Shown here: positions 452 to 61,112 of the stretch, piece by piece
Position numbering within the stretch: position 1 is the stretch's first letter
Layout of the letters: each line of letters begins with the position of its first letter
Assembly (NCBI RefSeq): GCF_963921235.1
Contig: NC_086097.1
Span: forward strand, 66,342,001 to 66,406,000
Origin: Mobula hypostoma
Taxonomy: Eukaryota
Direction of reading: 5' to 3'
Length of the DNA stretch: 64,000 bases
Translations under genes and position numbers: made by a program
The notes under the pieces: model-generated
Databases searched by the model: none
Told to the model about the DNA's origin: nothing
Seen by the model: the letters and a program-made list of their open reading frames with translations, nothing else

Positions 452-1524
452 GTAGGTAATTAAAGCAATAATTTTATTTCTTTAACCTCATGAAAATATA
501 AAATTGTAATAAATGGTAAGCTTTGACTGTTTTCAGAAGTGATGTACAGTTTTTTAAAAAATTATTGTTCAGTAAAATACCATCTTAAAAAGTTACTACA
601 CAGGAGCTCATAACATTGGGTGTAATGTATCAACTTAAACAGAAGATTGGCAAAAGAACAGAAATAATATGGAGACAAGAATTAATATCTTCTCTCACTT
701 GTGAATCATTATAATTCTCTACGCCAGGAAATGGAGTCTGAATGACTGAATGTATTCAAGATGACACATTTTCTTCCATAGTTGCAGTCATTGTTAGTGG
801 GAAACAAACAGGTAGGTGGAGCTTCCAAGATCGGATCTCCCATGATTACATTGGATGGTGAAGTAGGCATAAGGGGACATACAGTATAGTCTACTCACTC
901 TCCTTTTGTAATGCTTTCAATTAAGGTTATTTATTGAAAGTTAGAGGTATTCTTTGTGTATGAAGAACTGTACAGTTATTACAGACCCAGGAACTGCAGC
1001 AAAGCATGGCCTCTTATCCAAGAATCTTTTGTTCCAGCAAACCTCTATGGACTATACTTATAACCCACAGAATAACTGTAATGTAATACTGTACTGTACT
1101 AATCAACACTATAGACTTAAAACCGCACTGCTCCTACTTTTGAAAAGACAGGAATGTTGTTTATTCATATCCAGTACAGTTGCAGATATAACCATATCAT
1201 GGGTTGCCTTGTGCTGTTGAACCTTTGTAACAGAATAAGTGTGATTGAAGACAGAAAGGACTGAAAATTCTGGATTTTGGAGCAAAAAAAACATCCTGCT
1301 GAAAGAATTTAGCAGACCAGGTACCATCTGTGGAAGCAAAGGGATGGTTGACATTTTTGGTTGAGTACATGCATCAGTTGGGCAGGTCATTTGCAGATGT
1401 CAAAGAACAGATATGTATGATGTATGACAAACAAAAGAAAATCTGCAGATGCTGGAAATCCAAGCAACACACACAAAATGCTGGAGGAACTCAGCAGGCC
1501 AGGCAGTAACTATGGAAAATAGTA

Positions 1525-1867
1525 GGTTCAATAGATTCAAAAGGTACATTTAATGTCAGAGAAATGTATACAATGTACTTCCTGAAATTCTTTTCCTTTG
1601 CAAGCATCTATGAAAACAGAGGAGTTCCTCAAAGGATGAATGACAGTTAAACGTTGGAACCCCAAAGACCCCCCCCAGCTCACATGCACAAGCAGCACAA
1701 AGGCCATGACCCCCCCCACCGGCAAAAAAGCATCAGCACCCTTCACCGAACACTCAAACATGCAGCCAAAGCATCAATAAAGACACAGACTTGCAGTACC
1801 CCAAAGATTACAGTATTTGCTCACCCGGTAATTTGACATACCAAAGGCGCGTGCGTGTATTCTCATT

Positions 1868-1954
<87 letters not shown>

Positions 1955-2478
1955 TCTCTCTCTCTCTCCCTCCCTCCCTCCCTCCCTCTCCCTAATAAGG
2001 GAAAAAGGGGTGTCCCCATTTCACAGCAAGGGGGAAGACATAACAAACAACTCACTGATTTATGGTATTATAAGTCTGTTGTGTTGCTTTTTCTGAGCTC
2101 TGCGCTCAGAGAGCTCAGGTGTCCAGATACATAGCTAGCCTGGTTCTCATGATGCCCTTGTTGTCCCATGATGCCTCAGTCAGGGACACCGCCTTGAATC
2201 AGCCCGTCTCCAGAGCCATGAAAATCCGGCACCCTGATGGCGTGCTGGTCTTCCAGCCTGTGTCCTTGGCATATCAAAAAGCAGCCGGTTGTGGGGCCCT
2301 GACAGCGGGTCCTATTCCCACGAAGAACCAAAGTCAGCATGTAACTCCAGGTCAGGGTCTTCAAAAGAACCTTGAAAAGGGAAAAAAAAAGAAATATCAT
2401 AGATAGAAATAGAGCTGTTTCTACACAAGCAAAGGAATCACTGTTTAGCGCCATCATGACTTCGCGCTGCCCTCTGTC
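1525..2478 (-). mobile_element. Non-coding, non-autonomous retroelement (LINE-tailed) containing a (CT)n tract
   Basis: Cleanly interrupts the pLTR; minus-strand 5' end has GATGGCGC, 3' end has an ATTAAA signal plus short ttgaa repeats; no credible ORF. Confidence 0.55.
1873..1992. repeat. (CT)n microsatellite with CCCT-type extension
   Basis: Directly visible. Confidence 0.98.
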
Positions 2479-2792
2479 ACAGTCGACGTTTTGGGCCAAG
2501 ACCCTTTAGCAGGTCCTGGAGACCCTTCAGCGGGTCACAAATGATGCAGACTAGTGCCGTTTGGCCATAGCTGGTTGCATAAGATTGACACAGCTCATCA
2601 ACTACTCTTATGCTGCCAAATCTTTCCAAAAAGTTAGTTTAAGATAAAATACATGACACGCAGAAAAGGAGTTGGTCTCTCTGACTTTCTGCAGTAAAGT
2701 AACAGAACACAATGTTTTGTTTTCATTTTTAAGTTGTGATATCATTGGCATTTTTGATATTATTGCTCATCCTAATGGTAGTATTAGTATTA

Positions 2793-3085
2793 GTGTGGCA
2801 CTTGGCCAAGTGTTGGGCTCATAATCTGAAGGTCTTGGGTTTGAGTCTCGGCCAAGGCAGTGTGTTGTGTCTTTGAGCAAGGCATTTAATCACACACTGC
2901 TCCAGTCCACCCAGCTGAAAATGTGTACTGGCAAATGCTGGGGGTTAACCTCGCAATAGACTGGCGTCCTATCTGGTGTGTGGGGGGGGGGGTTAGTTTT
3001 GTACTCTCAGTCGCTTTACACCACAGAAACCGGCGTAAGCACTGGCCTGATGGGCCACAAAGGCTCGGGACAGACTTTGACTTTT
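2793..3085 (+). mobile_element. tRNA-derived SINE with CORE-like body
   Basis: A-box-like tggccaagtg, B-box-like gggtttgagtctc, CORE-like tgtgtctttgagcaaggcatttaa, (gacttt)2 tail. Confidence 0.65.
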
Positions 3086-3554
3086 GAATGTAGTGATAAG
3101 TCTCTTCTTGAAACATTGTTTTTACACTATAATTATGTTATTCAAAGCTTACTAGCCTACTTCAGAGGGCAATTAAGAGTCAATCATAGTACTGTGGAAT
3201 GGAGACACAGAGAGGGCAAATGGAGTGAAGAGTAGTTATGATGAAATTTTATCACAATCTAGTAGTTTGTAATCATACTACCAAAGTTGGTCTTTAAAAA
3301 AATTTGGATTATTTAATTTACCATAAATTCCAATATACTGTGTTGAGAATTGAAATTTCTTCTTTGGATTGTTAGTCTAGGTCTATAAATTATCTGGTTT
3401 TGTATTCACTGTGTTCCATTTCTTCTGCTCGGTAACTTTCTGAATTTCTGTGTAACACTACAAAAAAAAATTATCTGATGCCTGGCTCAGTTCTCTTCCC
3501 AACAATTTCTCCAGCCTTAACTATTTTCATCAATCTAAACCCTTAATATATTCT

Positions 3555-4320
3555 CAGAATCATAATCAGTTTATTATCACTGTCATATGTCTTGAAATTT
3601 GTTGTTTATAGTAGCAGTACAGGACAAGACATAACAAATTACTATAAGTTACCATAATAAGTAAATAAACAAACAGTGCCATAGAGGAATAGCAAGGTAA
3701 TGTTCATGAGTTCATTGACCATTCAGAAATCTGATGCCACAGGGAAAGAATTTGTTCATAAAACATTGAGTGTGTGTCTTAAGGCTCCTGTACCTCCTTC
3801 CTGATTGTATTAATGGAAAGAGGGTCTGGATGGTGAGGGTCAATAATGATGGGTACCGCCTTTTTGAGGCACTGTCCTTTGAAGACGTCCTCAGTGGTGG
3901 AGAGGGTCATACTTGTGATGGAGCTGGCAAAGTCTACAACCCCTTGCATCCTCTTTCAGCTTTGTCCATTGGAGCCTCCATACCAGGTAGTGATGCAACC
4001 CATCAGAATGCTCTCCATGATATATCTGTACAAATTTGCTTGAGTCTTCGGTGACTTATAAAATCTCGTCAAATTCTTAATAGGTAGAGCTACTGTTGTA
4101 CCTTCTTCATGATTGTATCAATGCGCTGGGCCCAGGAAATTGGAGCTATTCACTCTGACCTCTGAATGTGCATTGATGTGTGTTCTTCCTGAATTCTACA
4201 TCAACTCCTTGAGCTTGCTGGCATGGAATATGAGGTTTTTGTTGTGATACTACTCAATCAGCTGTTCTATTACGCCTTCTTGTTGCCAGCTATGATTCTG
4301 CCAACAACACCAGTGTCATG
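3555..4320 (-). mobile_element. Rex1/Babar-type LINE, decayed 3' portion
   Basis: Minus-strand AATAAA and ctgatt-type tail at about 3555-3575; degraded ESILMGCITTWYG-type C-terminal motif. Confidence 0.65.
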
Positions 4321-4440
4321 AAGTTTTCCATTCTGTAATTTTCCTTTTGTGGTTTACAAGCAGATGAGCTAATTCCAAATTTCTGAATTGAAATTCATAT
4401 TGGCAAGGCCACTCACTACACATTACAGACCAGGGTAACA

Positions 4441-4832
4441 TTTAGGAGCTGAATTAGCATATTTGGCCCCTAGAGTCTGCTTTGTTTATCATTCGATCAT
4501 GGATGTATTTTTTTCAACTCCATTCTTCTGGGTTCTCCTTGTAATCCTTAACTCCTTTACCATTTGAGAACCTATCAATTTCTACTTTAGTACGCACAAT
4601 GACTTGGCCTCAGCAGCCCTATGCAGCTGAAGAAATTCCTCCCTATCTCAGTTTTAAAGGGGTGCCCCTTTATTCTGAGTTTGTGCCTTAGATCCTATAC
4701 TCTTCTACTAATGGAAACATCCTTTCCATGTCTACTTTGTCCATCCTTTTAGTGTTCAGTAAGTTTCAGTGAGACTCCTCTTCCTTCTGAACTCCACTGA
4801 GTACAGGCCTAGAGCCATCAAACACTCTTCTA
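4441..4832 (-). mobile_element. CR1-type LINE 3' fragment
   Basis: Reverse complement of the CR1 3' ends at 18800-19247 and 31850-32105. Confidence 0.75.
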
Positions 4833-5291
4833 TTCTGCCACTGTCTGCCGAATGAATAACATTTCTGCTTTATTTTCCTTTTGATTATATATTTTTTTAA
4901 TTTCTCTGTTTACACATTCTGGAATTTCAATTTAAAACATTTTTTTTCTTTCACATTTAACTGTTAGTCTTTCTCCCATTTTACCTCCAAGCTATCATTT
5001 TGTTTCTTGAGGAAGAAGCAATCTCATGCAGGCAACTAATAACTTTGGGAGAAATAAATGATGAGATATAGGGTTGTAGTTGAAGAATTAATACTTAAAT
5101 ATTAGGCGTTGTTAGGTTAGTGGAGACACCTTAAATATTCAAGAAAATATTTTAAAAGGAGGAAATTTATGGAACAGAAATGTATTTATTAATAAGATTG
5201 TTAATAATCCATATTCTTCAGGGCCATGAGAATTTTGGACTGAAGCACAGTGGAAAGGGATCTAAAGGCAAAACAAATACATATAAAATGA

Positions 5292-5471
5292 CAGGAATTC
5301 TGCAGATGCTGGAAATTCAAGCAACACACATCAAAGTTGCTGGTGAACGCAGCAGGCCAGGCAGTTCAGGCAGTTAGTCCTGACGAAGGGTCTTGGCCTG
5401 AAACGTCGACTGCGCCTCTTCCTATAGATGCTGCCTGGCCTGCTGCGTTCACCAGCAACTTTGATGTGTGT
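5292..5471 (+). mobile_element. Short Penelope-derived insertion made of inverted pLTR pieces
   Basis: 14-bp TSD tacatataaaatga at 5278..5291 and 5472..5485; perfect 42-bp inverted arms 5323..5364 and 5431..5472. Confidence 0.85.
5375..5412 (+). ncRNA. Minimal type I hammerhead ribozyme motif
   Basis: TAGTC-CTGACGA-AGG(gtcttgg)CCT-GAAACGTC-GACTG: core CUGANGA and GAAA, stem II AGG/CCT, palindromic ACGT replacing stem III, GUC cleavage triplet, stem I TAGTC/GACTG. Confidence 0.75.
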
Positions 5472-5719
5472 TACATATAAAATGAGATGGTGTTTAAATT
5501 AAATGGAGGAATGTGGAAGAAACCCTATTTTACATTTGAGAAGCATATTTTGGATACTTCATTGGGTTTGATTTTAAAGGGAAATGCAAGCATTACTGCA
5601 AGTAAAGTGTAGAGGAGTTAGGGGTTTCCATTAATGTATAAGACCATCTGATTTTGAAATATGCTCACAGCTCTTTGCTATTTTACGGTTGTACCCCATT
5701 GTTGGACAACATATGTCAT

Positions 5720-6292
5720 CCGAGAGGTAATGTTGCAGCTACGTAGGACCCTGGTCAGACCCCACTTGGAGTACTGTGCTCAATTCTGGTCGCCTCGCTA
5801 TAGGAAGGACATGGAAACCATAGGAAGGGAGCAGAGGAGAATGTTGCCTGGATTGGGGAGCATGCCTTATGAGAATAGGTTGAGTGAACTCGGCCTTTTC
5901 TCCTTGGAGTGATGGAGGATGAGAGGTGACTTGATAGAGGTGTACAAGATAATGAGAGGCATTGATCATGTGGATAGACAGAGGCTTTTCCCCAGGGTTG
6001 AAATGGTTAGCATGAGAGGGCATAGTTTTAAGGTGCTTGGAAGTAGGTACAGAGGAGATGTCAGGGGTAAGTTTTTTACGCAGAGAGTGGTGAGTGCGTG
6101 GAATGGGCTGCCAGTGGAGGTGGAAATGATAGGGTCTTTTAACAGACTCCTGGATGGCTACATGGAGCTTGGAAGAATAGAGGGCTATGAGTAAAGCCTA
6201 GGTAGTTCTAAGGTAGAGACATGTTTGGCACAGCTTTGTGGGCCAAAGGGCCTGTATTGTGCGGTATGTTTTCTATGTTGCTATGTTTCTAT
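5720..6292 (+). mobile_element. CR1-type LINE, 5'-truncated 3' end
   Basis: LVRPHLEYCAQFWSP, RGDLIEVYKI, FFTQRVV motifs; (ttctatgt)-type tail. Confidence 0.9.
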
Positions 6293-6955
6293 CCATTTTG
6301 GGGTTGCAGAGTTGCACCAATCCACCTTAGAAACCTGGAGTTCTTCAAAAATTTTTATGTTATTATGTCTAGTTTTATTAATTGCTTTGCTTTGAATGTT
6401 TGAGCTTTGTTTTAATTTTTGCAAAAAAAGATTAGTACATTTAAAATAATAACTTGAATCATTTTAAATAGTTTTGGAAAGCTTCTGTCTACCAATTAAA
6501 TTCAATGTTGCCCTGCTTTAAACAACGTGCTAAACTATTGTGGATAGCAAAACTGAGTGTTAGTTTTTCCAAAGTTTCATGTGTGGGTCTTGATCTGGCC
6601 CTCGTTTCCCTCTTCCATAATCTCCTTCCTCCTCTGCATTGTTCCACATCATGGCGTTCATAGATGGAAGCCTGATTTGTCATCAATGCTTAGGTTTGCA
6701 GTTTGGAAATTGCAATCGATAGTGTTCATACCACACAAGTTAAGTTTAGGAGGTAAGCACTGAGTTCAGATAAGTTGTTACTCACTTCAAAATATAGTGC
6801 ATTGTGTTTTGAACAATTAATTTTACTCTGAAATTATGTGATATTCTAATTAAGTAAAGACAGAGTTTTCAACATTTTGATATATTACTGCCATTCTTTG
6901 CTTTTACAATAGTTTTTTGCATAGATATTTGACTCTTTGTATTTGTTTTGAATAG

Positions 6956-7069
6956 ATGAAAATCCACAAAGATGCAACAAAGCTGTTTTGGACACCAGCA
7001 TTTCCCAAGTTTGCAGTTCCTATTTCATATATACAGGAAATCCTATACCCAAAGTTGCAAATGGAATTG
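6956..7069 (+). CDS. TTC6: TTC6-like exon B (phase 0 to 0)
   Basis: tttgttttgaatag|ATG...TTG|gtaata; 114 nt; MKIHKDATKLFWTPAFPKFAVPISYIQEILYPKLQMEL. Confidence 0.8.
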
Positions 7070-7454
7070 GTAATAAGAAAAAAAAATCAGATATTGTGCT
7101 TTTTTTTCCATTTTGTTATTTTTTATTAGAGATTTGGATGTAAAGCTTGTATTATTACTAACAGATAGATGAATTAAACAAAGATAAATGGAATTAATGA
7201 TGTCTGGTTTAACCTAATCTTGAACTACTGAAAACTAATATAGATTCAGGAAGTTCAATAGTGTCTCTTTCTTCCGTAGTCTTACATTTCTCAAATGTGT
7301 GTCCTGGAAATGGTAACTAGATGCCTGGGTTCAGTTTATTAACTGATTTCATTGAATTATTGTATGATATAGCAAAGAAAGGTGTCACTTGGGCCACATG
7401 CCTACTTTTGAAAAGCTATGCAAAAAAAAACAACTCAAAATGGAAGTAAAAACA

Positions 7455-39000: not shown

Positions 39001-41506
39001 CACTTTTACTTTTCACCTTACTACTTTTTGCTTCTACCCTCATTTTACACCCCTCTGTCTCTCTGCACTTGTTCCCATCTCCCTGCCACATTAGTTTAAA
39101 TCCTCCTGAACAACAGTAGCAAACATTTCCCCTAGGACATTGGTTCCAGTCCAGCCCAGGTGCAGACCGTCCTGTTTTACCGGTCCCACCTCCTCCAGAA
39201 CTGGTTCCAATGCCCCAAAAATTTGAATCCCTCCCCCTTGCACCATTTTTCAAGCCACGTATTCATCTGAAGTATCCTCCTATTTCTACTCTGACTAGCA
39301 CGTGGCAATGTTCCGACAAGAACTGTCCTTTGTTATTCATATAACAAGCCATGGGTAACAAAGGACATTAAGGACATCCTGAATGCTCAGAAAAGAGCGT
39401 TTAGAGATGGAAATAGGGAGGAGCTGAGGGGAATACAAAGGGACCTGAAAGCCAGGATCAGGGAGGCTAAAGACAGGTACAGGAGGAAGCTTGAGTGGAA
39501 ACTCCAGCAGAACAACATGAGAGAGGTCTGGAGGGGGATGAGGACCATCACTGGGTTCCGGCAAACTAGCAACAGAGGAGCTGAAGGCAGTGTGGACAGG
39601 GCCAATGAACTTAACCTGTTCTTTAACAGATTTGACATTGTGGCCTCTGCCCATCCCCCACATGAGCCATCTGTTGTCGGCCCCCAACCAACACATATTC
39701 CACTCTCCCCTCCTACCCCTCCTCACAGTCCCCCACCCTGCTCTCATGACTATACTCCTTCCCCACACGAAACCACCATGGTGGGCTTCACAGCTGAACA
39801 GGTGAGAAGACAGCTGAAACGTCTCAACCCGAGCAAGGCTGCAGGACCGGATGGTGTCAGTACCAGGGTGCTCAAAGCCTGTGCTCCTCAGCTATGTGGA
39901 GTACTTCGCCATGTATTCAACCTGAGCCTGAGGCTCCGGAGGGTTCCTGTACTGTGGAAGTCGTCCTGCCTCGTCCCTGTGCCGAAGACGTCGCGCCCCG
40001 GTGGCCTCAATGACTACAGACCGGTGGCATTGACATCCCACATCATGAAGACCCTGGAGAGACTTGTTCTGGAGCTGCTCTGGCCTATGGTCAGGCCACA
40101 CTTAGATCCACTCCAGTTCGCCCGCCAGCCCCGACTAGAAGTTGAGAATGCCATCGTCTACCTGCTGAACCGTGTCTACGCCCACCTGGACAAGCCAGCG
40201 AGCACTGTGAGGGTCATGTTTTTTGACTTCTCCAGTGCGTTCAACACCATCCGCCCTGCTGTACTGGGGGAGAAGCTGACAGCGATGCAGGTGGATGCTT
40301 CCCTGGTGTCATGGATTCTTGATTACCTGACTGGCAGACCACAGTACGTGTGCTTGCAACACTGTGTGTCCAACAGAGTGATCAGCAGCACTGGGGCTCC
40401 ACAGGGGACTATCTTGTCTCCCTATCTCTTCACCATTTACACCTCGGACTTCAACTACTGCACAGAGTCTTGTCATCTTCAGAAGTTTTCAGATGACTCT
40501 GCCATAGTTGGATGCATCAGCAAGGGAGATGAGGCTGAGTACAGGGCTACAGTGTCACATGGTGTGAGCAGAATTATCTGCAGCTTAATGTGAAAAAGTC
40601 TAAGGAGCTGGTGGTAGACCTGAGGAGAGCTAAGGTACCGGTGACCCCTGTTTCCATCCAGGGGTTCAGTGTGGACATAGTGGAGGATTACAAATACCTG
40701 GGGATACGAATTGACAATAAACTGGACTGGTCAAAGAACACTGAGGCTGTCTACAAGAAGGGTCAGAGCCGTCTCTATTTCCTGAGGAGACTGAGGTCCT
40801 TTAACATCTGCCGGCCGATGCTGAGGATGTTCTACGAGTCTGTGGTGGCCAGTGCTATCATGTTTGCTGTTGTGTGCTGGGGCAGCAGGCTGAGGGTAGC
40901 AGACACCAACAGAATCAACAAACTCATTCGTAAGGCCAGTGATGTTGTGGGGATGGAACTGGACTCTCTGACGGTGGTGTCTGAAAAGAGGATGCTGTCC
41001 AAGTTGCATGCCATCTTGGACAATGTCTCTCATCCACTACATAATGTACTGGTTGGGCACAGGAATACTTTCAGCCAGAGACTCATTCCACCGATATGCA
41101 ACACAGAGCGTCATAGGAAGTCATTCCTGCCTGTGGTCATCAAACTTTACAACTCCTCCCTTGGAGGGTCAGACACCCTGAGCCAATAGGCTGGTCCTGG
41201 TCTTATTTCCTGGCATAATTTACATATTACTATTTAACTATTTATGGTTTTATTACTATTTATTATTTATGGCGCAACCGTAACGAAAACCAATTTCCCC
41301 CAGGATCAATAAAGTATGACTATGACTATGGTAGTAATCCATAGATTATTACATTTGTGGTCCTACTTTTTAGTTTATCTCCTAACTCCCTAAATTCACC
41401 TTGTAGGACCTCATCTCATTTTTTACCTATATCGTTGGTACCTATGTGCACCACGACCACTGGCTGTTCACCTTCCCACTCCAGAATGTCCTGCAGCCAC
41501 TCAGAG
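36016..41506 (-). mobile_element. CR1-type LINE with largely preserved ORF2, interrupted by Rex1
   Basis: ORFs 38642..39253, 38322..38660, 37303..38154, 36564..37109 (QGSVLGP, FADN) and 36113..36397; (tagaaaca)n tail; ORF1 resumes at 41331..41506. Confidence 0.95.
39311..41330 (+). mobile_element. Rex1 LINE, 5'-truncated, near-intact RT
   Basis: KAAGPDG, YRPVALTSHIMK, FFDFSSAFNTI, PQGTILSP, FSDD, QSRLYFLRRLRSF; one frameshift near 40550; AATAAA plus (tatgac)n tail. Confidence 0.93.
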
Positions 41507-42201: not shown

Positions 42202-42352
42202 CTTCCTTCAGTTAGTCCTGACGAAGGGTCTCGGCCTGAAACGTCGACGGTACCTCTTCCTAGAGATGCTGCCTGGCCTGCTGCGTTCACCAGCAACTTT
42301 GATGTGTGTTGCTTGAATTTCCAGCATCTGCAGAATTCCTGTTGTTTGCGTT
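42202..42352 (+). mobile_element. Penelope-like pLTR inserted at the end of the Gypsy LTR
   Basis: Near-identical to 5371..5472 and 49182..49292. Confidence 0.85.
42213..42250 (+). ncRNA. Minimal type I hammerhead ribozyme motif
   Basis: TAGTC-CTGACGA-AGG(gtctcgg)CCT-GAAACGTC-GACGG; intact core, stem I shortened to GTC/GAC. Confidence 0.7.
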
Positions 42353-48130: not shown

Positions 48131-48881
48131 AAAAATTATGAACTTTTCTGGAATGTTTTGTGAGTAAGCTGTTCTTAAAGCAAATTATATCAATTTCCTT
48201 ATTGATTTTAGTTAGATACAAAGAGTAAAATGAATTTTGAAAACGTTTGTTAAGAAATTAGACTAAAGGCTATTTAGTTTTTGATGAATTGTATGATGGA
48301 GTCTTGTTTCCAATGGATAATGAAGGTCTCTGCGTTGCCACCCACAGTATTATTAGCTCTTAAGGGAATTGTCTCATTCTTGTGTCCATTGTATGAAAAA
48401 ATAATGCAGCTATACCAAAATGCTGCCGTATGGGACTTCTTTTTGAATCTGTGTTAAGGCAGTTGAAATCTTTGGCAATTATTTATGTCATGGCAAAATT
48501 TGTCCACATATTTCCTCTTACTTTCCTTCTGATTGTTTTGACAATTGCTGCTGTATAAAAGCACAGTGGCAGCCAGTAGGGAAATAATCATAAGAGTCAT
48601 AGAACAATACAGCACAGTTACAGTCTGTTTCGCCCAACAAGTCCATACTACCCATGCTGCCCACCCAACTAATTTCAATTTTTCCCAATAGATCTGCGCA
48701 ATGGATTGCTATTGATAAAAGATCAGTTGCACATGGATGTAATCAAAACCTTTATATTTCTTGAAAACAGTGTTGTAATTGAATGAGCATATAGGATCAA
48801 TGCAGTCAAGGTCATTGTAGACATGATAACCTATTTTCTGCATCAATCCCAGAACACAAAACAACTATTAATCTTGGGGAA

Positions 48882-49292
48882 CAACTTCTCTAACTTCCGC
48901 TAATGCCCCACCTCCCCCTCGTACCCCATCCGTTATTTATATACACATTCTTTCTCTCACTCTCCTTTTTCTCCCTCTGTCCCTCTGACTATACCCCTTG
49001 CCCATCCTCTGGGTCCCCCCACCCCCCTTTTCCTTCTCCCTGGGCCTCCTGTCCCATGATCCTCTCATATCCCTTTTGCCAATCACCTGTCCAGCTCTTG
49101 GCTCCATCCCTCCCCCTCCTGTCTTCTCCTATCATTTTGGATCTCCCCCTCCCCCTCCCACTTTCAAATCTCTTACTAGCTCTTCCTTTAGTTAGTCCTG
49201 ACGAAGGGTCTCGGCCTGAAACATCGACTGTACCTCTTCCTAGAGATGCTGCCTGGTCTGCTGCTTTCACCAGCAACTTTGATGTGTGTTGC
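48882..49292 (+). mobile_element. 5'-truncated Penelope-like element (ORF end, pyrimidine-rich UTR, pLTR)
   Basis: 15-bp TSD attaatcttggggaa (48867..48881, 49293..49307); begins with NFSNFR*. Confidence 0.85.
49193..49230 (+). ncRNA. Minimal type I hammerhead motif, ACGT palindrome mutated to ACAT
   Basis: TAGTC-CTGACGA-AGG(gtctcgg)CCT-GAAACATC-GACTG. Confidence 0.6.
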
Positions 49293-49666
49293 ATTAATCT
49301 TGGGGAAATGTTATTTATTTTAGAAAATGGAGTACAGTATAATTTAACAACATTATGAATGTATGAACTGTAGACTAGTGGTACTAATATTTCCTACTGA
49401 CATCAAGAAAAGGTTGGAAAATGTAAAAGAATGGTGATTCTAATTAGGAAAAATGAACAATATAAATTGATTTTTGACAGGTATGCTTTGAGTGATCTAT
49501 TCACATGATTATCACAATTAATCTTTTTATTAATTGTCAACTGGCCCTGATTTACATTGTATTCAAGGAATAAGATTAATTGATCATCTATGCAAAAGCA
49601 AAATGGGCTGAATAGGTTCCTGCTATGAACGTAATATGTACTTCTGTGATTATTTTTCTATTTTAG

Positions 49667-51812: not shown

Positions 51813-54800
51813 CTACGAATAAAATGTCACTGCACAGAAATGAAGGAAAAAAATGCTACTGTTGTGGGAACAGATCACATGACCCTGACGGTTGTTGGTT
51901 TAAAGATAAGGAATGCCGAAACTGTGGCAAACAGGGCCACACTGGCAGAGTATGCAAAACTGGTAAACAGCAGGGAAAGGGCAAAATACAGAGAAACAAG
52001 AAACCCCAGAAAGGAAAATACAACAATGTGCACAAAATGAAAGAAAGCAATCCTGATGAAAATGACTCAGACAAAAGTGAATTGTCTTGTCTGCCACATC
52101 ACAGCATAGAAGAGACAGATGATCGAAGAGTAATAGGATCACTCCACAAGTGGCAGGCGTGAGACTGAAAATGGAGCTGGACGCAGGCTCAGCCTTAACA
52201 GTGATCTCTGTACACGACTACAAACGACTGTTTTCGGCACATACTTCTGAAACGAACTAAACTACTGCTAAAGACTTACACATGATAGAAAGTGCACCCC
52301 GAAGGCAAAATTAAAGTGACAGTGACCCACAGAGGTAAAACACACCAAATGAACCTCTATGTACTGATAAATGAAGGACCACTGTTGCTGGGACGTGAAT
52401 GGCTCAGGAAAATTCAGTTGGTTTGGCACACCATCAAGGCACTAAATGTGTCAGCAAAGGAGGGCAGCAAGGCTACATTTAAGAGACTGTTGCAAATGCT
52501 TGCTGACTCTGAGGAAGTCTTCATGAAAGGAATAGGAACCCTGGCATGAAAGCAAAGATTGAGATTGAGGAAAATGCATGTCCAAAATTTCACAAAGCCA
52601 TGCCAGTGCCATATGCAATCCGTTCTATAGTAGAGGCAGAGCTGAAAAATCTGGAGGAGACTGGGGTCCTGTCAAAGGTGGATTGGAGTGAATGGGCCAC
52701 GCTTATTGTTCCAGTGATGAAGAAAACCTCCAGCACAAAACCAGCAAAACCAAGCAAGGTGCGCATATGTGGAGACTTTAAAGTGACTGTTAACCCAGTT
52801 CTCCGCACAGTACAGTACCCTCTACCTCGTATTGAGGACATCTTTGCTTCCCTGTCAGGAGGGGATCATTTCACAAAAATTGATTTGACCCAGGCTTACC
52901 TTCAAATAGAAATTGAGGAAGCATCCAAGAAATGCCTGACAATAAATACACACAAAGGACTTTACCAGTACAACAGGATAGTGTTTGGGATAGCATCAGC
53001 GCCTGCAATCTGGCAAAGGGTAATGGACCAGGTTCTGCAGGGGATTCCAGAGACTCAGTGTTACCTGGATGATATCATTGTTGCCAGCAGATGACGACGA
53101 ACATCTTTCTAACCTAAAACAAGTGCTCACCAGGTTACGAGAATATGGGCTCAGAGCTAATCGACAGAAATGTGAGTTTTTTAGAAAGGAAATTCCATAC
53201 TGTGGGCATATGATCAACAAGGATGGCTTACACGTCTCAAGACAAGATAGAAACGGTGCTTAAGGCACCACCACCTGAAAATGTGTCTCAGCTGAGAGCC
53301 TATCTTGGACAAGTGAACCACTACCACAAGTTCTTGCCTAACCTACCACAGTCCTACACCCACTAAATGCATTATTACAGGCAGGGGCACAATGGAAGTG
53401 GACTGAGAGCTGTGAGAAAGTGTTTCAGGAAACTAAAAGACTCATAACTTCAGATGGGGTGCTCGCGCACTTTGACCCCTCCTTACCTATCTGACTAACT
53501 TGTGAAGCCTCGCCCCATGAGACAGGAGCTGTGTTATCGCACAAGTTTCCAGATGGCTCCAAAAGACCAATAGCCTTTGCCTCAAGAACACTAACTTCAG
53601 CTGAATGCAACTATGCACAGATTGACAGAGAGGCTCTAAGCCTTGTGTGGGGAATCAAGAAATTCAGTCACTACCTGTATGGACAAAAGTTTGCTCTGAT
53701 GACTGACCATAAGCCTCTCATGTCAATCTTCAACCCAAGGAAAGGCATTCCAGTGATGACAGCACAAAGGCTACAGCGATGGTCCCTTTTCTTAGGAGGT
53801 CACAGGTATGACATTGAACACAAGGGGACCAAGCAACAGGGCAACGCAGTTGGTTTGTCACGTTTACCATTGCCCACTTCCAAGGTAACTACACAAACGG
53901 ATTCAGCAGAGATCTTTCACACAACAGTAGTTGAACAATTACCAGTAACAAACAGCCTCATTGAAAGGGAAACATGCAATGACCCTACGTTGTCAAAAGT
54001 GTATGACATCACGGTAAAGGGGTGGCCAGCGCGGGGTAACACACTGTTTCCAGCCTTCTCAGCGAGGAAGGAGCAGTTGTCAGTGTGTCGGGGAACACTA
54101 ATGTGTGGTTCATGAGTAGTGGTCCCTCCCAAGCTATGCACCAGAGTGCTGGTGGAACTGCACAAGGGGCTCCTGGGTACTGTGAAGATGAAAGGTCTTG
54201 CCCGTGCCTATGTGTGGTGGCCAGGAATCGATAAACAAATTGAGGATGTGACCAAGAACTGCTCTGGGTGTCAATAGATCCAGAACACACCACCATAAGC
54301 CCCTCTCCAGCCCTGGGAGAGGCCCTCATCACCATGGCAGTGAGTGCACATCGACTTTGCTGGACCATTCATGGACTCTATCTTTTTAATCGCCATTGAT
54401 GCACATTCCAAATAGCTGGAGGTCATCAAAATGAAGACAACCACATCAGAAAAGACCATTACAGTGCTGAGGACCATGTTTGCCAGGAATGGCATACCAG
54501 AGCAAATCTGCACAGATGATGGACAATTTGTCTTGAAGAATTCTAAAGTTTTGTGAAGAACAATGGAATCAAGCACTTTACATCAGCTCCTTACCATCCA
54601 TCCACAAGTGGCTTGGCAGAAAGATTTGTACAGACATTCAAGAAAGCCCTCAAGGCAAGGGACTGCAAAAATCGACCACTACAACACAAGATAGACAACT
54701 TCCTCCTTGCCTATAGTAATGCAGTACGTGCAACCACTAACCAAACTCCAGCGATGACGTTTCTGAACAGGAACCTGAGGTCCCGCATGGATCTTCTCAA

Positions 54801-59504: not shown

Positions 59505-61112
59505 CGGTGGCATGCACAAGTTTGGGCACCCCTGGTGTTACTGTGAATAGCTAAACGAGTAAAAGATGACCTGATTTCCAAAAGGCATAAAGTTAAAGAC
59601 GACACATTTCTTTACTATTTTAAGCAAGATTACTTTTTTATTTCCATCTTTTACAGTTTCAAAATAACAAAAAAGGAGAAGGGTATGAAGCAAAAGTTTG
59701 GGCACCCTGCATGGTCAGTACTTAGTAACACCCCCTTTGGCAAGTATCACAGCTTGTAAACACTTTCTGTAGCCAGCTAAGAGTCTTTCAATTCTTGTTT
59801 GTGGGATTTTCGCCCATTCTTCCTTGCAAAAGGCTTCTTGTTCTGTGAGATTCTTGGCTGTCTTGCATGCACTGCTCTTTTGAGGTCTATCCACAGATTC
59901 TCGATGATGTTTAGGTCGGGGGACTGTGAGGGCCATGGCAAAACCTTCAGCTTGCACCTCTTGAGGTAGTCCATTATGGATTTTGAGGTGTGTTTAGGAT
60001 CATTATCCTGTTGTAGAAGCTATCCTCTTTTCATCTTCAGCTTTTTTACAGACGGTCTGATGTTTGCTTCCAGAATTTGCTGATATTTAATTGAATTCGT
60101 TCTTCCCTCTACCAGTGAAATGTTCCCTGTGCCACTGGCTGCAACACAAGCCCAAAGCATGATTGATCCACCCCCGTGCTTAACAGTTGGAGAGGTGTTC
60201 TTTTCATGAAATTCTGCACCCTTTTTTCTCCAAACATACCTTTGCTCATTGTGGCCAAAAAGTTCTATTTTAATTTCATCAGTCCACAGGACTTGTTTCC
60301 AAAATGCATCAGGCTTGTTTAGATGTCCCTTTGCAAACCTCTGATGCTGAATTTTGTGCTGAAGACACAGGAAAGGTTTTCTTCTGATGACTCTTCCACA
60401 AAGGTCATATTTGTGCAGGTGTCGCTGCACAGTAGAACAGTCCACGACCACTCCAGAGTCTGCTAAATCTTCCTGAAGGTCTTTTGCAGTCAAGCAGGGG
60501 TTTTGATTTGCCTTTCTAGCAATCCTACGAGCAGTTCTCTCGGAAAGTTTTCTTCGTCTTCCAGACCTCAACTTGATCTCCACCGTTCCTGTTAACTGCC
60601 ATTCTTAATTACATTATGAACTGAGGAAATGGCTACCTGAAAACGCTTTCCTATCTTCTTATAGCCTTCTCCTGCTTTGTGGGCATCATTTATTTTAATT
60701 TTTAGAGTGCTAGGTAGCTGCTTAGAGGAGCCCATGGCTGCTGATTGTTGGGACAAGGTTTGAGGAATCAGGGTATTTATAAAGCTTTGAAATTTGCATC
60801 ACCTAGCCTTTCCTAATGATGACTGTGAACAAGCCATAGCCACAAGCTAATTAAGGTCTAAGACCTTGGTAAAAGTTATCTGAGAGCTCAAATCTCTTGG
60901 GGTGCCCAAACTTTTGCATGGTGCTCCTTTCCTTTTCTCCCACTCTAAAATTGTACAAAACAAAAATAATACACTAATCTTGCTTAAAATGTTGAAAAGA
61001 ATGTTTCATCTTTAATTTCATGACTTTTGGAGATCAGTTCATCTTCTACTCACTTATCTATTCACAGTAACAGAAATTTTGACCGGGGTGCCCAAACTTT
61101 TGTATGCCACTG
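59505..61112 (-). mobile_element. Full-length Tc1 transposon (IR/DR type)
   Basis: TA flanks; TIRs of about 200 bp with outer and inner aagtttgggcaccc repeats; 1608 bp. Confidence 0.96.
59715..60735 (-). pseudogene. Tc1 DD34E transposase pseudogene
   Basis: MGSSKQL...WTDEIKI...QQDNDPKH...[11 protein letters not shown]...GGVTKY*; 34 residues between second D and E; two 1-nt deletions and one TAG at 60020. Confidence 0.93.

What the first reader, a model, noticed from the sequence alone, without database searches (positions are those of the whole stretch)
5278..5485. 180-bp insertion: hammerhead ribozyme in the loop of a perfect 42-bp hairpin, with 14-bp TSD
Seen in sequence: tacatataaaatga is duplicated at 5278..5291 and 5472..5485; arms 5323..5364 and 5431..5472 are exact reverse complements; the loop holds TAGTC-CTGACGA-AGG..CCT-GAAACGTC-GACTG on the gene's sense strand. 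Established: Penelope-like elements carry minimal type I hammerheads lacking stem III and often show inverted terminal-repeat arrangements. Inference: this is either a one-off inverted pLTR insertion product or a member of a tiny non-autonomous ribozyme-bearing retroelement family (retrozyme-like). In the pre-mRNA it would form a long dsRNA stem displaying a self-cleaving motif.
Basis: partly seen in the sequence, partly recalled or inferred. Interest (0 to 1): 0.75.

Follow-up and report, generated by a model that had tools for sequence, protein, structure and literature searches.

The report
Head-to-head Penelope retrotransposon stub
This hairpin is a real, recent, single-copy insertion made of two head-to-head end pieces of a very abundant Penelope-type jumping gene in the genome of a cartilaginous fish (likely a ray), an insertion shape already described and shared by over a thousand other sites, likely formed when both cut DNA strands primed copying of the element's RNA, and its ribozyme motif is predicted to be inactive on its own.

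Summary
A related organism has the empty site with one copy of the 14-mer, so this is a true, young insertion in a ttc6 intron. It is not its own retrozyme family. The junction occurs once in the 3.48-Gb genome, while the hammerhead 23-mer occurs 59,155 times as the 3' end of a Neptune-like Penelope element with RT and GIY-YIG domains. The insert is two stubs of that end, joined head to head: one starts at the 31-nt 'tail', one at the shorter end. Three patterns find 738, 642 and 1,254 such loci (overlapping sets). Of 105 examined, 103 have exactly one tailed arm and 95 have 12-18-bp duplications. Inverted repeat, one-sided tail and duplication are published Penelope features. Best mechanism: a staggered double nick primes two cDNAs, which are joined by microhomology. 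The hammerhead lacks stem III, has G10.1-U11.1 and is predicted to misfold, so it is likely silent as a monomer. The scan found this same form before in several other genomes. Ordinary locus; modest value as mechanistic evidence.

The parts
5278..5291 (.). Left copy of the 14-bp target-site duplication; its top-strand 3' end likely primed the tail-start cDNA
   Evidence: empty site with one copy in organism B
5292..5322 (-). 31-nt Penelope 'tail' (element positions +134 to +104, counting from C5371 as +1), present on this arm only
   Evidence: the family's 3' ends cluster at about +100-113 and +132-141
5323..5364 (-). Left hairpin arm: inverted copy of element positions about +103 to +61
5358..5375 (+). 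Junction: tandem 9-bp duplication (5358-5366 and 5367-5375) around a CAG microhomology; 6 nt (5365-5370) align to neither arm
   Evidence: sequence; gap 6; single-copy in genome
5371..5472 (+). Sense arm: element positions +1 to +102, ending at the family's short 3' end; one substitution (T5394) against the five closest arms
5375..5412 (+). Minimal type I hammerhead motif: stem I 5375-5379 with 5408-5412, core CUGACGA 5380-5386, extra A5387, stem II 5388-5391 with 5396-5399 (G10.1-U11.1), GAAAC-GUC 5400-5407, no stem III; predicted cut after C5407
   Evidence: sequence; matches the min-HHR description in PMC4209133; no Rfam hit
5431..5472 (+). Right hairpin arm (element +61 to +102)
5472..5485 (.). 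Right copy of the 14-bp target-site duplication; its bottom-strand 3' end likely primed the short-start cDNA
455..6955 (+). Host context: intron of a ttc6-like gene; the insert lies about 1.5 kb upstream of the next exon
   Evidence: splice-site dinucleotides read from sequence

Best explanation
It is a single, recent, severely 5'-truncated insertion of an abundant endonuclease-bearing Penelope-like retrotransposon, made of two head-to-head pieces of the element's 3' end, likely built at this site when both strands of a staggered cut primed reverse transcription. Shown: the pieces, their orientation, their end points, the 14-bp duplication, the empty site, the parent element. Inferred: (1) the element's GIY-YIG endonuclease, probably as a dimer, nicks both strands 14 nt apart, leaving 3' overhangs; (2) the top overhang primes a cDNA at the tail start site (+134) and the bottom overhang a cDNA at the short start site (+102); (3) both stop early, after about 74 and 102 nt; (4) their 3' ends anneal through CAG, slip once (the 9-bp duplication) and are filled in. 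The hairpin is the stretch that both cDNAs copied (+61 to +102). The hammerhead is the element's ordinary pLTR motif carried along and is likely silent as a monomer.
For: Parent element: 59,155 exact copies of the hammerhead 23-mer. Upstream on the same strand lie RT motifs (PADKG, YIDD) and a GIY-YIG domain with a CX4CX2C linker. Partial tandems pLTR-ORF-pLTR are seen in 3 of 8 long copies (L146, L147, L150). Architecture: 738, 1,254 and 642 loci match three head-to-head patterns, reversed-pattern controls 0. In 105 loci, 103 have exactly one tailed arm and 95 have a 12-18-nt duplication, against 0 of 300 mismatched flank pairs. The tail is on the truncated arm in 47 and on the hammerhead arm in 33 of 80. 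In 49 of 94 loci, including this one, each arm holds more than 10 nt that the other lacks, which one strand copying itself cannot give. At two non-CpG diagnostic sites the arms carry different common alleles in 12 of 149 comparisons, against 2.7 expected from background (P 2.5e-5), so some pairs come from different templates. Both nick sides show a similar T-rich outer flank (63 loci). In vitro, an anole Penelope protein cuts and extends both strands and starts at two sites that bound the tail (PMC11167929).
Against: No integration intermediate was observed; the mechanism is read from end products. Most arm pairs agree at diagnostic sites (9% discordant against 43% if paired at random), which also fits self-copying. 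PMC11167929 saw no difference in start site between the strands, so the strict one-tail rule is not explained by that assay. PMC3846280 prefers self-priming on an antisense template. Pfam scores for RT and GIY-YIG were below the curated cut-offs. The junction shows a 1-6-nt overlap in only 45 of 94 loci; 12 are flush and 37 have 1-13 extra bases.
Confidence: 0.75

Rival explanations
1. Same parent element, but the inversion came from self-priming (fold-back of one cDNA, or of an antisense RNA), followed by an asymmetric deletion at the centre of the palindrome.
For: Proposed for rotifer Penelope elements (PMC3846280, passages). Arms are identical here and concordant in 91% of diagnostic comparisons. 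Some loci are near-perfect palindromes (L004/L005, L013, L125).
Against: Needs a second event in 49 of 94 loci, including this young one. Does not by itself explain why the copied arm stops at the same +100-113 position at which non-inverted copies end, nor the excess of arms with different common alleles, unless ectopic gene conversion is added.
Confidence: 0.17
2. The 180-bp unit is a small non-autonomous, ribozyme-bearing element (retrozyme-like) that moves as a whole.
For: Both strands of such a unit end in a start site for reverse transcription, so re-mobilisation is conceivable. A few junctions recur at different loci (one in 5 of the 50 loci listed; L041 and L042 share one).
Against: This junction is single-copy at up to 2 mismatches. 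The recurring junction sits on a 2-nt microhomology, and L041 and L042 differ from each other in their sense arms. Animal retrozymes are defined as tandem direct repeats with at least two hammerheads (10.64898/2026.07.22.740005); this has one, not in tandem.
Confidence: 0.04
3. The insertion acts on the host gene: the hairpin presents an active hammerhead that cuts ttc6 pre-mRNA.
For: Sense orientation in an intron. All core bases are present; stems I and II are predicted to form inside the hairpin (P 0.79-0.90). An anole Penelope hammerhead cleaved when the element's protein was added (PMC11167929).
Against: No stem III; a single min-HHR showed no cleavage in PMC4209133. G10.1-U11.1 replaces the conserved G-C pair. 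The core is predicted to mispair. The next same-strand hammerhead cores found in the window are at 42218 and 49198. The insert is absent in a close relative, so there is no sign of conservation.
Confidence: 0.04

Closest known systems
Insertion units of EN+ Penelope-like elements with an inverted, 5'-truncated pLTR, one-sided 30-40-bp tail and TSD (Pen2a_Av, PMC3846280; general scheme, PMC8557442)
   Same: Head-to-head inverted copy, 31-nt tail at one end only, target-site duplication, hammerhead in the pLTR, parent with RT and C-terminal GIY-YIG.
   Different: Reduced to the minimum: no ORF and only 74 + 102 nt of pLTR; TSD 14 bp (mode 13-14 in this family) against 8-10 bp in the rotifer cases read.
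Neptune / Nematis clades of Penelope-like elements
   Same: Parent copies have a CX4CX2C motif upstream of GIY-YIG, which PMC8557442 gives for Neptune and Nematis and not for Penelope/Poseidon.
   Different: No tree was built and no named reference sequence compared, so Neptune against Nematis is not decided; 10.64898/2026.07.22.740005 lists Neptune and Poseidon as the vertebrate groups.
PAc (Poseidon of Anolis carolinensis), reconstituted in vitro (PMC11167929)
   Same: Both strands cut and extended, two start sites that bound the tail, little homology between target and RNA, hammerhead not needed for insertion.
   Different: Other clade; that assay found no strand difference in start site, whereas here 103 of 105 insertions use the tail at exactly one end.
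Non-LTR retrozymes of animals (PMC7229834 listing; 10.64898/2026.07.22.740005)
   Same: Small, non-coding, type I hammerhead, derived from a Penelope pLTR.
   Different: Retrozymes are tandem direct repeats that amplify as units; this is one inverted, single-copy product.
L1 twin priming (recalled)
   Same: Both target strands prime cDNA, giving a 5' inversion, microhomology at the junction and a TSD.
   Different: L1 arms copy different parts of the RNA; here both start within about 35 nt of each other and overlap, which gives a hairpin.

Membership tests
EN+ Penelope-like element (fragment) | Sequence is the terminal repeat of an element with a PLE-type RT | tested here: met
   About 900-aa open frames with PADKG and YIDD motifs upstream of the repeat; Pfam RVT_1 E 9.6e-5, below cut-off
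EN+ Penelope-like element (fragment) | C-terminal GIY-YIG endonuclease with two cysteines between GIY and YIG | tested here: met
   GVIYCVWCSRCGLLYIGET in L012; Pfam GIY-YIG E 1.9e-4, just below cut-off
EN+ Penelope-like element (fragment) | Partial-tandem pLTR arrangement | tested here: met
   3 of 8 long copies have pLTR-ORF-pLTR
EN+ Penelope-like element (fragment) | Inverted 5'-truncated copy and 30-40-bp tail at one end | tested here: met
   This locus; 103 of 105 loci
Neptune clade | CX2-5CxxC linker motif before the endonuclease | tested here: met
   CKRNKCYTC in L012 and others; the motif is shared with Nematis (PMC8557442)
Neptune clade | RT groups with Neptune in a phylogeny | not tested
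   No named reference sequences were fetched
Minimal type I hammerhead of metazoan PLEs | Core CUGANGA and GAAA, extra base between 9 and 10.1, palindromic 15.2-16.2, UH site, stems I and II, no stem III | tested here: met
   Sequence 5375-5412; description in PMC4209133
Minimal type I hammerhead of metazoan PLEs | G10.1-C11.1 pair | tested here: not met
   G5388 with U5399; U at this place in 21 of 30 family copies
Minimal type I hammerhead of metazoan PLEs | Self-cleavage (dimer- or protein-assisted) | not testable with these tools
   Needs an in vitro assay
Rfam hammerhead families | Covariance-model match | tested here: not met
   No hammerhead match at E up to 1 (4500-6500) or up to 10 (5366-5430)
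Non-LTR retrozyme | Tandem direct repeats, at least two units with a hammerhead | tested here: not met
   One hammerhead, inverted layout
Non-LTR retrozyme | Multi-copy unit that spreads as a whole | tested here: not met
   Junction single-copy
Non-LTR retrozyme | Circular RNA in vivo | not testable with these tools
   Only assembled contigs were available

The most novel reading that the evidence does not exclude
These stubs record a Penelope integration rule not yet shown by experiment: a two-fold symmetric enzyme cuts a 13-14-nt stagger, makes each overhang start at a different one of the two start sites (one tail per insertion, 103 of 105), and in roughly one case in six to eight copies two different RNA molecules into one site. 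That would replace antisense self-priming as the source of Penelope inverted repeats and can be tested with two marked RNAs.
Probability: 0.5. Interest if true: 0.4.

Novelty: new member of a known kind. Interest (0 to 1): 0.18.

Why it matters
The locus itself matters little: it is one of well over a thousand like insertions in this genome, in a published layout. Its value is as data. How Penelope elements make their inverted repeats and one-sided tail is still open (PMC8557442, PMC11167929), and this very large, recently active family gives counts that bear on it: strict one-tail use, 13-14-nt stagger, similar flanks at both nicks, and a minority of insertions with arms from different templates. 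The insertion is also a clean presence/absence marker between organisms A and B.

Tried and rejected
Rfam scans found only hairpin-driven microRNA matches far below gathering scores and one chance snoRNA match; no hammerhead. The microRNA reading was rejected. Primer-to-RNA homology at the insertion ends: mean overlap 1.0 and 1.2 nt against 0.3 and 0.4 for shuffled primers (55 of 63 loci mapped per side), but taking the longest exact duplication inflates this, so no claim beyond 'at most 1-2 nt'. Expression: no RNA holder listed. In three runs guessed to be RNA the repeat is covered by thousands of contigs from other copies and the unique flanks have next to no cover; one 1,039-nt contig of X16 covers 6951-7070 alone, as a spliced ttc6 exon would; none of this tells whether this intron copy is cut. 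Organisms C (X9) and E (X15): no listed contig bridges the site. An empty allele in organism A: none among the listed contigs of X1, which is probably the source sample. Paper searches: 'Penelope + twin priming + inversion' gave 3 papers, none on this by title or abstract; 'Penelope + Batoidea + transposable elements + genome' gave 0. Repeat libraries (Repbase, Dfam) were not available, so the family may already be catalogued. Supplements of the papers were not opened and may hold further insertion statistics.

Full report
Observation. The 14-mer is duplicated at 5278-5291 and 5472-5485, the arms 5323-5364 and 5431-5472 are exact reverse complements, the insert is 180 bp, and the hammerhead core lies at 5380-5407. 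The RNA fold has z = -14.4. Rfam finds no hammerhead family here, at E up to 1 over 2 kb or up to 10 over 65 nt; the motif is recognised from its sequence and from the min-HHR description in PMC4209133 (parts 1-2 of 4 read). The predicted stem II closes with G5388-U5399 after an extra A, not with AGG/CCT.

A true, young insertion. In two runs of one sample of organism B, a single contig passes from 5277 to 5472 without a break, with one copy of the 14-mer; the flanks differ from the window by about 1.5% (table 8, records 9 and 16). In run X1 of organism A, contigs enter the insert from both sides. The sense arm differs from the five closest arms among the loci examined by one base, T5394. The site is in an intron of a ttc6-like gene on the + strand, between exons at about 290-454 and 6956-7069; the named hits are almost all cartilaginous fishes, the best a sawfish, so the host is likely a ray.

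What the sequence is. The junction 26-mer occurs once in the 3.48-Gb genome, and a 25-mer across it occurs once with up to 2 mismatches. The hammerhead 23-mer occurs 59,155 times. In the first 30 of those loci it lies about 290 nt downstream of an open frame on the same strand that ends in a GIY-YIG domain with a CX4CX2C motif before it and RT motifs further up (Pfam GIY-YIG E 1.9e-4 and RVT_1 E 9.6e-5, both under the curated cut-offs). A protein search found frames of about 900 aa; 3 of 8 that I fetched show the pLTR-ORF-pLTR partial tandem. This is an endonuclease-bearing Penelope-like element; the linker motif points to Neptune or Nematis (PMC8557442, passages), and no tree was built. Counting C5371 as +1, the family's 3' ends fall in two groups: 16 of 30 loci at +100 to +113, 12 at +132 to +136 (the end of that reference), 2 earlier. 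The finding is an inverted piece from +134 to +61 followed by a sense piece from +1 to +102. The hairpin is simply the part that both pieces share; 5292-5322 is the 31-nt tail. In that same sample of 30, an inverted arm was detected in 13 loci (10 insertions), 6 of them (4 insertions) under 300 bp.

How common. Exact patterns for head-to-head stubs match 738 loci (hammerhead in one arm), 1,254 loci (hammerhead in both arms) and 642 loci with the tail on the truncated arm as here (overlaps the first set); reversed-pattern controls gave 0. I examined 105: the first 90 of the 100 listed (this locus among them) and the first 15. Those two patterns lie inside the arms and do not select on ends. Exactly one arm had the tail in 103 of 105, both in 1, neither in 1; if arms chose independently at the 12-in-30 rate, about half would be expected. 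A duplication of 12-18 nt (at most one mismatch) was found in 95 of 105, mode 13-14, against 0 of 300 mismatched flank pairs. For finer counts I kept 94 loci with a duplication of 12 nt or more, a junction gap under 30 nt and one tail (11 dropped).

Mechanism. In 49 of 94 loci each arm has more than 10 nt that the other lacks; the first pattern favours such asymmetric loci. One strand folding back on itself can only copy what it already holds, so these need two initiation events, or a later deletion. The tail sits on the truncated arm in 47 and on the hammerhead arm in 33 of 80. Arms mostly agree at five subfamily-diagnostic sites (28 of 311 discordant, against 43% when shuffled and 1.8% at other sites), so most pairs come from one RNA or one source copy. 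At the two non-CpG sites tested, 12 of 149 comparisons show different common alleles, against 2.7 expected (P 2.5e-5). By hand from these numbers, about 13-18% of insertions have arms from different templates: two RNAs, or two pLTRs of one tandem RNA; gene conversion from other copies is a rival cause. Junctions overlap by 1-6 nt in 45 of 94, are flush in 12 and hold 1-13 extra bases in 37; here CAG is shared and a 9-mer is duplicated. Both nick sides have a similar T-rich outer flank. The simplest reading is a staggered double nick whose two 3' overhangs each prime a cDNA, one at each start site, then joined end to end. This agrees with PMC11167929 (parts 1-2 of 4 read): the anole protein cuts and extends both strands, starts at two sites that bound the tail, is predicted to be a dimer, and does not need hammerhead cleavage. 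That paper saw no strand difference in start site, so the one-tail rule remains unexplained by it. PMC3846280 (passages) explains head-to-head palindromes by self-priming on an antisense template; with a central deletion added, that stays possible.

The ribozyme. All core bases are present and stems I and II are predicted to form even inside the hairpin (P 0.79-0.90), but the lowest-energy fold pairs GACG of the core with CGUC, and the open form costs about 4 kcal/mol. It has no stem III; PMC4209133 reports no cleavage for a single min-HHR and low cleavage for dimers. The conserved G10.1-C11.1 pair is G-U here and in 21 of 30 family copies. The nearest same-strand cores found in the window are 37 and 44 kb downstream. 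Cleavage of ttc6 pre-mRNA is therefore unlikely but untested; the contig data do not bear on it.

What is known. Inverted 5'-truncated copy, 30-40-bp tail at one end and TSD are described for Penelope elements (PMC8557442, PMC3846280), including a 31-bp tail. Animal retrozymes are tandem direct repeats with two or more hammerheads (10.64898/2026.07.22.740005, part 1 of 5 and passages), which this is not. L1 twin priming is recalled, not read. Two paper searches found no report of this family in rays or of twin priming for Penelope by those words; repeat databases and supplements were not seen. Earlier notes of this scan list seven like findings in other genomes with the same reading (none by sequence). 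They are unchecked AI notes, seen after I had recorded my reading, and are not support.

Verdict. Real, young, single-copy and ordinary: a minimal head-to-head stub of a very abundant Penelope-like element. The retrozyme-family idea is refuted for this locus. The counts over its sister loci are of modest value for the open question of how these elements integrate. Interest 0.18.

Noticed in passing
window 48867-49307: Another copy of the same family (sense on +), 5'-truncated, short 3' end, no inverted arm, with a 15-bp duplication at 48867-48881 and 49293-49307 (read).
   Followed up: partly
window 42209-42342: Third copy, about 134 nt, with the tail; no duplication seen by eye; the sequence beyond the tail reads like the start of an LTR-element gag gene (recalled likeness).
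   Followed up: no
window 1436-1507 and 2480-2506: Two minus-strand pieces of an older subfamily of the same repeat (88% and 93% alike), about 970 nt apart; possibly one copy split by a later insertion.
   Followed up: no
L141, L143-L152: All 11 long open frames printed end in the same off-frame peptide just after a C-run, before the endonuclease, while L003, L010 and L012 read on into GIY-YIG. May be only search bias, since the query (L014) had that frame.
   Followed up: no
L002-L031: Hammerhead position 11.1 is U in 21 and C in 9 of 30 copies; an abundant subfamily lacks the conserved G-C pair, in line with cleavage not being needed for insertion.
   Followed up: partly
63 loci: Outside both nicks the cut strand is T-rich over the next 8 bases (T up to 60-68% at some places, A 10-22%): a two-fold symmetric target preference. 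The first base is biased by how the duplication was called.
   Followed up: partly
listing; L041, L042: Some junctions recur at unrelated sites (one in 5 of 50 listed loci). Microhomology hot spots are the likely cause; a small re-mobilised subset is not excluded.
   Followed up: partly
window 290-59118 (+): Ten ttc6-like exons map across the window; best named hit is ttc6 of a sawfish at 71% identity.
   Followed up: yes
window 39295-41189, 52513-54115, 60020-60604: Open frames that look like a LINE RT, a Gypsy RT/RNase H and a Tc1-type transposase (motifs recalled, not scanned).
   Followed up: no
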